The translations under genes and the position numbers were made by a program. Shown piece after piece: positions 938 to 1,153 of a stretch of DNA of 42,599 bases. Under the pieces are notes generated by a model that saw only the letters and a program-made list of their open reading frames with translations, had not been told where the DNA came from and made no database searches. This DNA comes from Escherichia phage EF2-1, in the sequence record PQ571290, one strand, 5' to 3'. Each line of letters begins with the position of its first letter. The stretch's first letter is position 1.

Positions 938-1153
938 ATGCAACCATCTGAACTAGGCATCCGTGTAGAACAACGCCGCAAAGAACTAGGCATCTCTCAG
1001 CGCCGTCTGGCGGTTTTGGCTGGCGTTTCCCAGGGCGCGATTAACCAGCTGGCACTCGGCGTAACTCAGGACGTCCGCCCGGCGACGCTGTTTAAACTGG
1101 CGGAAGTGCTGCAAGTAGACGCCAAGTGGCTGGCGTTCGGTGAAGGGGCTTAA
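938..1153 (+). CDS. XRE-family helix-turn-helix transcriptional regulator (Cro/CI-like)
   Basis: 71 aa; HTH signature ISQRRLAVLAGVSQGAINQL; AAGGAG RBS; divergent from leftward promoter at 845-873. Confidence 0.8.
   Translation: MQPSELGIRVEQRRKELGISQRRLAVLAGVSQGAINQLALGVTQDVRPATLFKLAEVLQVDAKWLAFGEGA

What the first reader, a model, noticed from the sequence alone, without database searches (positions are those of the whole stretch)
938..1153. Cro/CI-like HTH regulator transcribed divergently from an early promoter, in a genome without integrase
A 71-aa XRE-family HTH protein is encoded on the plus strand amid minus-strand early genes, directly opposite the strong leftward promoter/operator at 845-873 and ending in its own terminator (1142..1169). 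This is the architecture of a genetic switch, but no integrase, excisionase-integrase pair or partition genes were found. The regulator may therefore time early/late expression through the multi-copy palindromic operator rather than maintain lysogeny.
Basis: partly seen in the sequence, partly recalled or inferred. Interest (0 to 1): 0.45.

Follow-up and report, generated by a model that had tools for sequence, protein, structure and literature searches.

The report
Cro-like repressor of a virulent coliphage
The 71-residue gene is a real, strongly conserved relative of the phage 434 Cro repressor in an integrase-free Kagunavirus, and it most likely shuts down the phage's own promoters through a palindrome found in at least seven of them, although no binding experiment exists.

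Summary
The window is a whole Kagunavirus genome (Guernseyvirinae). ORF 938-1153 (+) encodes a 71-aa single-domain HTH_3 protein. Its best sequence and fold match is phage 434 Cro. It sits opposite a near-consensus leftward promoter (873-845) and ends in a hairpin plus T-run (1142-1169).

The gene is under strong purifying selection (dN/dS 0-0.14). It is present in Kagunavirus (93-100% identity), Jerseyvirus (about 51%) and Cornellvirus (39%). GenBank records already call it 'transcriptional repressor' or 'Cro'.

No integrase, recombinase or partition protein was found. An excisionase-like HTH_17 gene is present.

The 'multi-copy palindrome' is real. AATAG-N4-CTATT occurs 7 times exactly (about 1 expected), always inside a promoter. 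Imperfect copies lie at two late promoters and at the gene's own promoter. Arms are invariant and centres vary across relatives.

Cornellvirus has a different palindrome at equivalent promoters. It keeps the Cro-like gene but lacks the HTH_17 gene, which favours Cro as the binder.

Binding itself is inferred, not shown. The timing/shut-off reading is plausible. A carrier-state immunity role is not excluded.

This is a new member of a known kind, of moderate interest.

The parts
938..1153 (+). Cro-like gene: 71 aa, single HTH_3 domain, five helices
   Evidence: ORF. Pfam HTH_3 1.2e-12. PDB phmmer best hit 434 Cro, E=4.9e-7, residues 6-68. AF2 model pLDDT 79; Foldseek top hit 2cro, TM 0.73/0.79. 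dN/dS 0.00-0.14.
924..929 (+). Shine-Dalgarno AAGGAG, 8 nt before the ATG
   Evidence: Sequence. Invariant in 35 Kagunavirus relatives, pi=0.
1142..1169 (+). Intrinsic terminator of the Cro-like gene. The stop codon lies in the loop. It is a poor terminator for the convergent minus-strand transcript.
   Evidence: The same feature is annotated as a terminator in phages Schulenburg and SETP3.
845..873 (-). P_L, the leftward promoter: TTGACA-17-TATAGT. It drives 556..813, 47..556 and onward.
   Evidence: 11 of 12. The -35 and -10 hexamers are invariant in relatives.
850..863 (.). O1: perfect palindrome AATAGCGAACTATT in the spacer of P_L (18-bp form 848-865, ATAATAG-N4-CTATTCA)
   Evidence: Arm pi=0.000 versus centre pi=0.212 in 35 relatives.
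894..907 (.). O2: degenerate palindrome AATATGGTACCATT, 44 bp from O1, overlapping the gene's own promoter. Relatives have AATATGGTACTATT; the window carries a T-to-C change at 904 seen in none of them.
   Evidence: The exact variant was not found in IMG/VR.
898..906 (+). Probable promoter of the Cro-like gene: extended -10, TGgTACCAT (TGgTACTAT in relatives). Jerseyvirus SETP3 has TTGCAC-17-TACTAT at the same place. An alternative candidate is TTCACT-16-TAAAAT at 862-889.
   Evidence: Sequence reading. No transcription start data exist.
4460..4473 (.). Operator copy at the divergent early promoters: TTGCAC-17-TACTAT rightward to gene 4498; a weaker TATGTT promoter leftward toward the HTH_17 / helicase-primase operon
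6051..6064 (.). Operator copy in TTGCAC-17-TACTAT, upstream of a small plus-strand gene (ATG near 6092)
14178..14191 (.). Operator copy at the divergent junction between cassette gene 13867..14151 (-) and the head-morphogenesis gene (+)
25698..25711 (.). Operator copy at the divergent junction between cassette 25670..23103 (-) and the tail-chaperone operon (+)
37507..37520 (.). Operator copy in the spacer of TTGACG-17-TATAGT (minus strand; helicase operon)
41061..41074 (.). Operator copy in the spacer of TTGACT-17-TATAGT (minus strand; ssDNA-binding protein and DNA polymerase)
8710..8723 (.). One-mismatch copy ACTAGTTGACTATT covering the -35 of the late-operon promoter TTGACT-17-TATATT (8715-8743)
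   Evidence: Conserved in all Kagunavirus genomes examined; Jerseyvirus has the mismatch in the other arm.
15841..15854 (.). One-mismatch copy AATAGTTGACTTTT covering the -35 (TTGACT) of a promoter upstream of the spanin, scaffold and capsid genes
3700..3870 (-). Rival candidate binder: HTH_17 'excisionase and transcriptional regulator'. The probable start is M29 of the 84-aa ORF, giving 56 aa.
   Evidence: Pfam HTH_17 5.7e-7 and phrog_66. 86% identical to SETP3 ORF46. No homologue in Cornellvirus.

Best explanation
The gene encodes a phage 434 Cro-type repressor, a single five-helix HTH domain that presumably acts as a dimer.

Proposed mechanism (inferred, not shown):
- The dimer binds the 14-18 bp palindrome (A/T)(T/G)AATAG-N4-CTATT.
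- One perfect copy (O1) lies in the spacer of the strong divergent promoter P_L.
- A weaker copy (O2) overlaps the gene's own promoter, giving negative autoregulation.
- Six more perfect copies lie inside the core of the promoters for the early-right genes, the replication genes and the two inverted gene cassettes.
- One-mismatch copies cover the -35 of two late promoters.
- As the protein accumulates during infection it would occlude RNA polymerase first at the perfect sites and later, or less completely, at the imperfect ones. This would turn down early and middle transcription, as lambda Cro does late in lytic growth, in a phage with no integration machinery.

Shown here: gene, fold, promoter, terminator, the palindrome family and its conservation pattern, and the absence of recombinases.

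Inferred: who binds the palindrome, the sign of regulation, and the timing.
For: 1. Identity. HTH_3 E=1.2e-12. The best solved relative by sequence is 434 Cro (71 aa, E=4.9e-7, near full length), and it is also the best by fold (2cro, TM 0.73/0.79, 40% identity).

2. The gene is functional. dN/dS is 0.00-0.14 at dS 0.13-1.2. It is present in 567 phage records.

3. The palindrome is real. There are 10 sites with at most one mismatch against 1.0 expected. It is the top palindrome in an unbiased count in both the window and SETP3. It occurs at orthologous promoters in 5 Kagunavirus genomes (7-8 exact each) and 3 Jerseyvirus genomes (5 exact each).

4. It behaves as a protein-binding site, not as a promoter feature.
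- Its distance from the -35 is 4 nt in the TTGACx-17-TATAGT promoters and 10 nt in the TTGCAC-17-TACTAT promoters. In SETP3 one promoter has 7 nt.
- One arm always lies in the spacer, where sigma-70 reads no sequence.
- Arms are invariant (pi=0) while the 4-nt centre (pi=0.21) and the adjacent gap (pi=0.54) vary.

5. The 5-N4-5, 14-bp geometry equals that of 434 operators. As a positive control, the 45%-identical homologue in phage klb_E carries the 434 'QQ' recognition helix and has two ACAA-N6-TTGT sites directly upstream of its gene.

6. The layout [P_L with a perfect site] - [own promoter with an imperfect site] - gene is kept in all three genera.

7. Cornellvirus uses a different palindrome, TATTA-N6-TAATA: 7 sites against 1.1 expected. 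These lie at equivalent promoters and next to its Cro-like gene. It keeps the Cro-like gene at 39% identity but has no detectable HTH_17 or 77-aa homologue.

8. Kagunavirus and Jerseyvirus differ in the flank of the site (CTATTCA versus CTATTA[A/T]). That matches the diverged Cro-like helix, not the HTH_17 protein, whose putative helix is unchanged.
Against: - No binding or expression experiment exists for this protein in any Guernseyvirinae phage, as far as the searchable literature shows.
- The recognition helix is SQGAINQL in Kagunavirus but SQSLITHL in Jerseyvirus, yet both genera share the AATAG arms. Cornellvirus (TQSAISHL) resembles Jerseyvirus but has different arms. There is therefore no simple helix-to-site covariation.
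- The HTH_17 protein is 86% identical between the two genera that share the palindrome and is absent where the palindrome differs. That phylogenetic profile fits HTH_17 at least as well.
- Perfect copies also overlap weak rightward promoters in front of late genes at 14178 and 25698. A simple 'early off, late on' scheme is therefore incomplete.
- The only transcriptome of a Kagunavirus puts a 'specific DNA binding' gene next to the helicase in the middle class. The identification is indirect and the study is coarse.
Confidence: 0.55

Rival explanations
1. The palindrome is the site of another phage protein: the 56-aa HTH_17 (Cox/TorI-like) product of 3700..3870, or the 77-aa protein next to it. 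Under this reading the Cro-like protein acts only locally or on different DNA.
For: - HTH_17 is 86% identical between Kagunavirus and Jerseyvirus, against 51% for the Cro-like protein.
- Its distribution (442 records, only those two genera) equals the distribution of AATAG-N4-CTATT.
- Its gene lies downstream of the 4460 copy.
- The Kagunavirus RNA-seq study lists an HTH gene among the four earliest genes.
Against: - Cornellvirus has an equivalent promoter-embedded palindrome family but no detectable HTH_17 or 77-aa homologue.
- From general knowledge, Cox, Apl, Xis and TorI-type proteins usually bind arrays of direct repeats as monomers, not 14-bp dyads.
- The site flank differs between genera, although the HTH_17 helix (RRTLNNWL) is unchanged.
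- P. aeruginosa AlpA, which does bind in a promoter spacer, has its DNA-binding HTH at residues 128-142, so it is much larger than 56 aa, and reads a 6-bp non-palindromic element as a monomer.
Confidence: 0.2
2. The protein is an immunity-type repressor. By silencing nearly every promoter of the genome it allows an unstable, non-integrated carrier (pseudolysogenic, episomal) state and superinfection immunity.
For: - Sites cover early, replication, cassette and late promoters, which amounts to near-global control.
- Its own promoter has the weakest site, as in maintenance circuits.
- The gene is convergent with the helicase-primase operon across a one-way terminator. That layout permits transcriptional interference of the kind known from phages P2 and 186.
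- The SGP-C paper reports turbid plaques, phage-releasing immune 'lysogens' and possible episomal DNA for a Jerseyvirus whose ORF49 is the homologue (52% identity).
- A complete Kagunavirus genome is deposited as circular plasmid pC16EC0033-2 of a blood isolate.
Against: - There are no partition, integrase or protelomerase genes.
- There was no hit in 5,426 complete E. coli genomes and only 1 of 72,556 plasmid records.
- There is no close relative in 185,579 representative bacterial genomes.
- The group is generally described as strictly lytic.
- The protein lacks any CI-type C-terminal domain.
- The SGP-C evidence is weak, and the plasmid record could be contamination.
Confidence: 0.12
3. The gene is a leftover of a temperate ancestor, or it acts on host or prophage DNA (for example by mimicking a prophage repressor such as DicA), with no role in the phage's own programme.
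For: - Some records name it DicA.
- Jerseyviruses also carry an Ant-type anti-repressor and an RDF-like gene, which have been proposed to manipulate resident prophages.
Against: - Strong purifying selection and core-gene status across three genera.
- Two copies of the phage's own palindrome lie immediately upstream in every genus.
- The recognition helix is unlike that of 434-type lambdoid repressors.
Confidence: 0.08
4. It is an XRE-type antitoxin, or a restriction-modification controller (C) protein.
For: Fold neighbours include the antitoxins HipB and HigA and the controller proteins C.AhdI and C.BclI.
Against: - The gene is monocistronic with its own terminator.
- There is no adjacent toxin, restriction or methylase gene; the neighbours are a helicase-primase and proteins of unknown function on the opposite strand.
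Confidence: 0.02

Closest known systems
Phage 434 Cro (and the 434 / P22 c2 repressor N-terminal domains)
   Same: Same length (71 aa). About 40% identity. Same five-helix fold. Gln conserved at the first position of the recognition helix. A 14-bp dyad with a non-contacted 4-bp centre. The gene lies next to divergent promoters that carry the sites.
   Different: - The recognition helix is QGAINQ rather than QQSIQL, and the half-site is AATAG rather than ACAA(G).
- There is no partner CI gene and no tripartite OR.
- Two sites lie 44 bp apart, plus at least 8 further sites spread over the genome.
- The host phage has no integrase.
Lambda Cro, in its function of turning down early transcription during lytic growth
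   Same: A small repressor, made from an early or middle transcript, that would repress early promoters and its own synthesis.
   Different: - Lambda Cro has a different fold and acts at only two operator regions.
- Here the sites are distributed over all transcription units.
- The function is inferred, not shown.
Repressors with dispersed operators: P1 C1, mycobacteriophage L5 gp71 'stoperators', phiC31 c repressor 'conserved inverted repeats' (cited from general knowledge, not checked here)
   Same: One small recognition sequence is repeated at many promoters or transcription units across the genome.
   Different: - Those phages are temperate and the repressors maintain lysogeny.
- The L5 and P1 sites are asymmetric.
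- Here the phage lacks integration and partition functions, and the sites are symmetric and lie inside core promoters.
P2 C/Cox and 186 CI/Apl switches (cited from general knowledge)
   Same: An XRE-type repressor and a small Cox/Apl-like HTH protein are encoded on opposite strands with convergent transcription. The SGP-C authors also proposed such a pair.
   Different: - The two genes are 2.5 kb apart, with the helicase-primase gene between them.
- There is no integrase.
- No evidence of bistability exists.

Membership tests
XRE / HTH_3 (Pfam PF01381) DNA-binding domain | Profile match above the curated cut-off | tested here: met
   48.1 bits against a cut-off of 23, E=1.2e-12, residues 11-65. 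PHROG transcriptional repressor/regulator families down to E=4.3e-11.
434 Cro-type single-domain repressor | About 70 aa, with the five-helix 434-type fold and no additional domain | tested here: met
   71 aa. Helices at 5-17, 21-28, 32-39, 48-57 and 62-66; pLDDT 79. Top Foldseek hit 2cro, TM 0.73/0.79. phmmer to 434 Cro E=4.9e-7 over residues 6-68.
434 Cro-type single-domain repressor | Dimer binding to a 14-bp dyad operator overlapping promoters next to its gene | not testable with these tools
   Candidate sites O1 (850-863) and O2 (894-907) have the right geometry and conservation pattern. No binding assay or protein-DNA model was possible.
CI-type immunity repressor (lambda, 434, P22 c2) | C-terminal oligomerisation / S24 self-cleavage domain | tested here: not met
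   The protein ends at residue 71, and only the HTH domain is detected.
Temperate lysis-lysogeny switch | An integrase or other recombinase, or partition/protelomerase functions for an episomal prophage | tested here: not met
   No such Pfam or PHROG family in the 36 proteins scanned. Only an orphan excisionase-like HTH_17 was found.
Temperate lysis-lysogeny switch | Occurrence as a prophage in host genomes | tested here: not met
   No megablast hit in 5,426 complete E. coli genomes. No close relative in GTDB representative genomes. One 'plasmid' record is a whole phage genome.
XRE antitoxin of a toxin-antitoxin pair / R-M controller protein | A co-transcribed toxin gene, or restriction and methylase genes | tested here: not met
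   The gene is monocistronic, lying between its promoter and its own terminator. The neighbours are on the other strand.
Guernseyvirinae core 'transcriptional repressor' gene | Orthology and synteny: between the helicase-primase gene and the leftward replication operon, plus strand, with its own terminator | tested here: met
   93-100% identity in Kagunavirus and about 51% in Jerseyvirus, with the same layout and an annotated terminator. In Cornellvirus (39%) the helicase-primase gene is co-directional.

The most novel reading that the evidence does not exclude
The Cro-like protein, with its genome-wide set of promoter-embedded operators, is a global silencer. It would let these 'strictly lytic' therapeutic phages persist as a repressed, non-integrated, partition-less episome, an unstable carrier state with superinfection immunity. 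That would explain the SGP-C 'lysogens' and the plasmid-like record CP088689.1. It would also mean that integrase-based lifestyle screens misclassify the group.
Probability: 0.12. Interest if true: 0.7.

Novelty: new member of a known kind. Interest (0 to 1): 0.4.

Why it matters
Kagunavirus and Jerseyvirus phages are widely proposed for therapy and biocontrol, on the argument that they lack lysogeny genes.

A conserved Cro-type repressor with operators in essentially every transcription unit would be the main phage-encoded control of their expression programme. It would also be a compact, portable repressor/operator/promoter set for engineering these small genomes.

If it also supports a repressed carrier state, safety assessments based only on the absence of an integrase would need revisiting.

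As it stands, the gene itself is already annotated and belongs to a textbook family. What appears to be undescribed is the operator regulon: I found no description of it in the searchable literature.

Tried and rejected
- Rfam scan of the whole window: no family reached its threshold.
- The 400-nt non-coding stretch 4043-4445 folds only marginally better than shuffles, z=-1.5.
- The AlpA-type antiterminator analogy for the HTH_17 protein was rejected. AlpA is much larger (its HTH lies at residues 128-142) and reads a 6-bp asymmetric element as a monomer.
- Host-factor sites recalled from memory (ARG box, LexA, TrpR, Lrp) do not fit the palindrome. This was not tested further.
- The idea that the palindrome is merely two overlapping -10 elements of bidirectional promoters was rejected. 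The TTGACx-17-TATAGT promoters are unidirectional, yet they keep the spacer arm invariant.
- Recognition-helix versus half-site covariation across three genera gave no clean signal.
- k-mer-limited protein search and IMG/VR scans returned almost only close relatives, so no deep phylogenetic profile could be built.
- The supplement of the K1B4 RNA-seq paper held only host gene tables.
- Two literature searches returned nothing relevant.
- MB78, an old Jersey-like model phage, has no searchable papers on promoters in this library.
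Full report
**What the window is.** The 42.6-kb window is a complete genome of a Kagunavirus (subfamily Guernseyvirinae), a small siphovirus of E. coli. Its first 5 kb match more than 100 Escherichia phage genomes at about 90-92% identity (ZCEC5, PDP21P8, Bas73 and others). The late region matches at up to 94.6%.

**Checking the observation.**
- ORF 938..1153 (+) is the only sizeable plus-strand ORF between minus-strand genes 556..813 and 1171..3411.
- It has a Shine-Dalgarno AAGGAG 8 nt before the ATG.
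- It matches Pfam HTH_3 (E=1.2e-12), and HTH_31 and HTH_19 above their cut-offs.
- The hairpin at 1142-1162 plus CTTTTT is a terminator-like site with MFE -14.9 kcal/mol.
- Read from the minus strand, the same hairpin is followed by TTCACC. It should therefore stop the HTH transcript but not the convergent helicase-primase transcript. This last point is an inference.

**The gene is functional.**
- Across 43 relatives, dN/dS against the window is 0.00-0.14 at dS 0.13-1.19 within Kagunavirus, and about 0.3 against Jerseyvirus.
- tblastn finds it in 567 phage records: 93-100% identity in Kagunavirus, about 51% in Jerseyvirus and 39% in Cornellvirus.
- The synteny holds in SETP3: helicase-primase, then the terminator, then the HTH gene on the opposite strand, then the divergent promoter. 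There a terminator is annotated too.

**The gene is not new.** Records call it 'transcriptional repressor', 'repressor', 'DicA' or 'transcriptional regulator Cro'. The Schulenburg record cites similarity to 434 Cro and annotates the terminator. Bas73 misses it and annotates a short antisense ORF instead.

**What kind of protein it is.**
- The best solved relative by sequence is phage 434 Cro, also 71 aa (E=4.9e-7, residues 6-68). Next come the 434 repressor N-terminal domain and P22 c2.
- An AF2 model (pLDDT 79) has five helices. Its best Foldseek hit in the PDB is 2cro (TM 0.73/0.79, 40% identity). SinR, HipB and the C.AhdI/C.BclI controller proteins follow.
- There is no second domain, so it is Cro-type and not CI-type.

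**Is there an integrase?** I scanned 36 predicted proteins, including every plausible gene of 150 aa or more, against Pfam, and ten of them also against PHROGs.
- Found: terminase, portal, Mu-F-like protein, tail tube, lysozyme, SNF2 helicase, family A DNA polymerase, Enc34-type ssDNA-binding protein, DUF2800/PD-(D/E)XK nuclease, PNKP-type phosphatase, dNMP kinase and others.
- Not found: tyrosine or serine recombinase, transposase, protelomerase, ParA or ParB.
- One correction to the finding: 3700..3954 (-) encodes an HTH_17 protein in PHROG family 66, 'excisionase and transcriptional regulator'. The likely start is M29, giving 56 aa, as in SETP3 ORF46.
- The cro-helicase region has no match in 5,426 complete E. 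coli genomes.
- It has no close relative in one genome per species of GTDB.
- It matches one record among 72,556 plasmids.

**The palindrome.**
- Repeat finding showed that the P_L region recurs at 37502 and 41056, and that two other promoter-like families share the same core.
- The core is AATAG-N4-CTATT, with seven exact copies at 850, 4460, 6051, 14178, 25698, 37507 and 41061.
- Three one-mismatch copies bring the total to 10, against 1.0 expected. No shuffle out of 100 reached 10.
- In an unbiased count of all 5-Nx-5 palindromes it ranks first in the window (7 copies) and in Jerseyvirus SETP3 (5 copies).
- All seven exact copies are intergenic and lie inside promoter-like sequence.

**Three promoter arrangements appear.**

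| Arrangement | Sites | Promoter | Position of the dyad | Genes driven |
|---|---|---|---|---|
| 1 | 850, 37507, 41061 | TTGAC(A/G/T)-17-TATAGT, minus strand | 4 nt after the -35; fills the spacer | Replication genes |
| 2 | 4460, 6051, 14178, 25698 | TTGCA(C/G)-17-TACTAT | 10 nt after the -35; right arm supplies the -10 | Early-right genes; the two minus-strand cassettes inserted in the late region |
| 3 | 8710, 15841 (one mismatch each) | TTGACT -35 embedded in the dyad | Covers the -35 | Terminase/portal; spanin/scaffold/capsid |

- The arrangement 1 promoters are the three best intergenic minus-strand promoters in the genome.
- At three of the four arrangement 2 sites, genes diverge from the same site. 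A weaker promoter (-10 TATATT or TATGTT) points the other way.
- A tenth, doubly mismatched copy (O2, 894-907, AATATGGTACCATT) lies 44 bp from O1, immediately upstream of the HTH gene.

**Is it a binding site or just promoter sequence?**
- The dyad keeps its sequence while its register relative to the -35 changes: 4, 7 or 10 nt.
- One arm always falls in the spacer, where sigma-70 makes no base-specific contacts (general knowledge).
- In 35 Kagunavirus sequences of the cro-P_L intergenic region, nucleotide diversity is as follows:

| Segment | pi |
|---|---|
| O1 arms | 0.000 |
| O1 centre (4 nt) | 0.212 |
| Gap between O1 and the -35 (2 nt) | 0.54 |
| -35 hexamer | 0 |
| -10 hexamer | 0.010 |
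| O2 arms | 0.000 and 0.011 |

- The same 'fixed arms, free centre' pattern holds at the other orthologous sites in five whole Kagunavirus genomes (7-8 exact sites each). For example, centres at one site read TTCG, TCTG or TTTG, and at another ACTA, GCTA or GATA. It holds in three Jerseyvirus genomes too (5 exact sites each).
- This is the signature of a dyad operator whose centre is not contacted, as in 434.

**Who binds it?** This is the weak link. Arguments for the Cro-like protein:

1. The geometry, 5-N4-5 over 14 bp, matches 434-type operators.
2. Two copies lie directly upstream of its gene, the weaker one over its own promoter. In relatives O2 reads AATATGGTACTATT, which contains TGgTACTAT, an extended -10. 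In SETP3 the equivalent is TTGCAC-17-TACTAT over ATTACTGTACTATT.
3. A positive control for the approach exists. The 45%-identical homologue in Klebsiella phage klb_E carries the 434-type 'KQQ(T/S)IQ' helix, and two ACAA-N6-TTGT sites lie directly upstream of its gene.
4. Cornellvirus lacks AATAG-N4-CTATT entirely but has its own family, TATTA-N6-TAATA, with 7 sites at one mismatch or fewer against 1.1 expected.
   - These lie at positionally equivalent promoters, upstream of the ssDNA-binding gene and at the tail-chaperone junction. They also lie in the P_L / own-promoter pair next to its Cro-like gene.
   - Cornellvirus keeps the Cro-like gene at 39% identity. It has no tblastn or Pfam-detectable homologue of the HTH_17 or the neighbouring 77-aa protein.
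5. Kagunavirus and Jerseyvirus sites differ in the flank (CTATTCA versus CTATTA[A/T]). The Cro-like helix differs between these genera, whereas the putative HTH_17 helix does not.

Arguments against:

1. The helices SQGAINQL (Kagunavirus), SQSLITHL (Jerseyvirus) and TQSAISHL (Cornellvirus) do not track the half-sites in any simple way.
2. HTH_17 is 86% identical between the two genera that share the dyad, and it is confined to them.
3. No experiment exists.

I put the Cro-like protein as binder at about 0.55-0.6, another phage protein at about 0.2, and the remainder on other readings.

**How it most likely works.**
- Inferred model: a dimer bound in the spacer or over the -10 or -35 hexamer of 17-bp-spacer, near-consensus promoters can only repress.
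- Perfect sites sit at early and replication promoters. One-mismatch sites sit at the two late promoters. The poorest site sits at the protein's own promoter.
- That affinity ladder would switch off early and middle transcription first, spare late transcription for longer, and cap the protein's own synthesis.

Caveats on this model:
- Perfect sites at 14178 and 25698 also overlap weak promoters facing late genes.
- No transcription start sites are mapped.
- The one Kagunavirus RNA-seq study is coarse. It lists a 'specific DNA binding' gene adjacent to the AAA-domain helicase among middle genes and an HTH gene among the four earliest.

**The lysogeny question.**
- The group is treated as strictly lytic. 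The orphan RDF-like gene has been noted as a genus marker.
- One paper describes Jerseyvirus SGP-C as 'temperate'. It reports turbid plaques, immune colonies that release phage, and sequencing suggesting an episome. It names ORF49 (the homologue, 52% identical) as Cro and the HTH_17 ORF46 as a possible CI/Cox.
- Independently, PLSDB holds a circular 44,086-bp 'plasmid', pC16EC0033-2, from an E. coli blood isolate. It is a whole Kagunavirus genome including the HTH gene.
- These are weak signals. It is one record in 72,556, and contamination or chronic infection could explain both. Still, they keep alive a reading in which near-global operator coverage serves a repressed carrier state.

**A detail specific to this window.** O2 carries a T-to-C change at position 904, turning TACTAT into TACCAT. 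The change is absent from all 35 relatives aligned, and the exact sequence is absent from IMG/VR. It weakens both the presumed -10 and the right arm of O2. Its effect is unknown.

**Verdict.**
The architecture, the missing recombinases and the operator family are real. The protein-operator link and the timing role are reasonable inferences without direct evidence.
- The gene is an already-annotated member of the 434 Cro family.
- The operator regulon of Guernseyvirinae appears not to have been described in the literature I could search.
- Interest is moderate.

Noticed in passing
L062 (CP088689.1, 1-7596, reverse complement); whole record 44,086 bp: A 'plasmid' (pC16EC0033-2, circular, non-mobilizable) in a complete assembly of an E. 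coli blood isolate from Korea is a whole Kagunavirus genome. It includes the Cro-like gene, the helicase-primase gene and structural genes (88% of a 12.5-kb late-region query at 88% identity). Possible explanations are a carrier state, pseudolysogeny or contamination.
   Followed up: partly
window 904 (within O2, 894-907): A window-specific T-to-C change turns the conserved TACTAT (the presumed -10 of the Cro-like gene and the right arm of O2) into TACCAT. It is absent from 35 aligned relatives, and the exact 26-mer is absent from IMG/VR.
   Followed up: partly
window 4043-4445: About 400 bp without a credible ORF lie between the divergent early promoters, with GC-rich hairpins at 4174-4196 and 4351-4371. 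The 116-aa ORF 4126..4476 (annotated in Bas73 as Bas73_0055) starts upstream of the leftward promoter and looks spurious. There is no Rfam hit, and the fold z-score is only -1.5. It could be an origin, an sRNA or a leader. In phage Schulenburg the equivalent gap is only about 95 bp.
   Followed up: partly
window 4474-4497, 6065-6090, 8744-8766; SETP3 (L002) 38992-39015: A conserved 5' leader, (C/T)ATCG(A/G)(A/C)AACGAG followed by a GGAG-type ribosome-binding site, lies downstream of several plus-strand promoters in both genera. This suggests a shared RNA-level element or a duplicated promoter-leader module.
   Followed up: no
window 13835-13869, 23072-23099, 35179-35206: A family of near-identical bidirectional hairpins (TAAAACTAAGGCCCC-loop-GGGGCCTT) marks where plus-strand late genes meet minus-strand genes: the 13867..14151 gene, the 23103..25670 cassette and the replication block starting at 35344. 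Each of the two cassettes has its own operator-bearing promoter at its other end, like mobile modules.
   Followed up: no
L043 (Bas73, PQ850603.1) 34042-34137: The carefully annotated BASEL record lacks the Cro-like gene and annotates a 31-aa antisense ORF in its place. K1ind3 also has no feature there. The gene is therefore under-annotated in some reference records.
   Followed up: no
L041 (Klebsiella phage klb_E) about 34270-34340, minus strand: The 45%-identical homologue has a 434-type KQQTIQ recognition helix. Two ACAA-N6-TTGT operators (ACAAACAAGTTTGT and ACAAATAACCTTGT) lie 27 bp apart directly upstream of its gene, a textbook 434-like immunity region in an unclassified Klebsiella phage.
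   Followed up: partly
L042 (Cornellvirus vB_CECAV_044) 10587-13631: In Cornellvirus the helicase-primase gene is co-directional with the Cro-like gene rather than convergent. The annotated 150-aa 'transcriptional regulator' is probably an over-extended start of a gene of about 70 aa. The promoter palindrome there is TATTA-N6-TAATA, whose right arm is itself the -10 (TAATAT).
   Followed up: partly
window 950-961 and 983-994: An exact 12-nt direct repeat, GAACTAGGCATC, occurs inside the Cro-like coding sequence, encoding ELGI twice (residues 5-8 and 16-19). It is probably chance.
   Followed up: no
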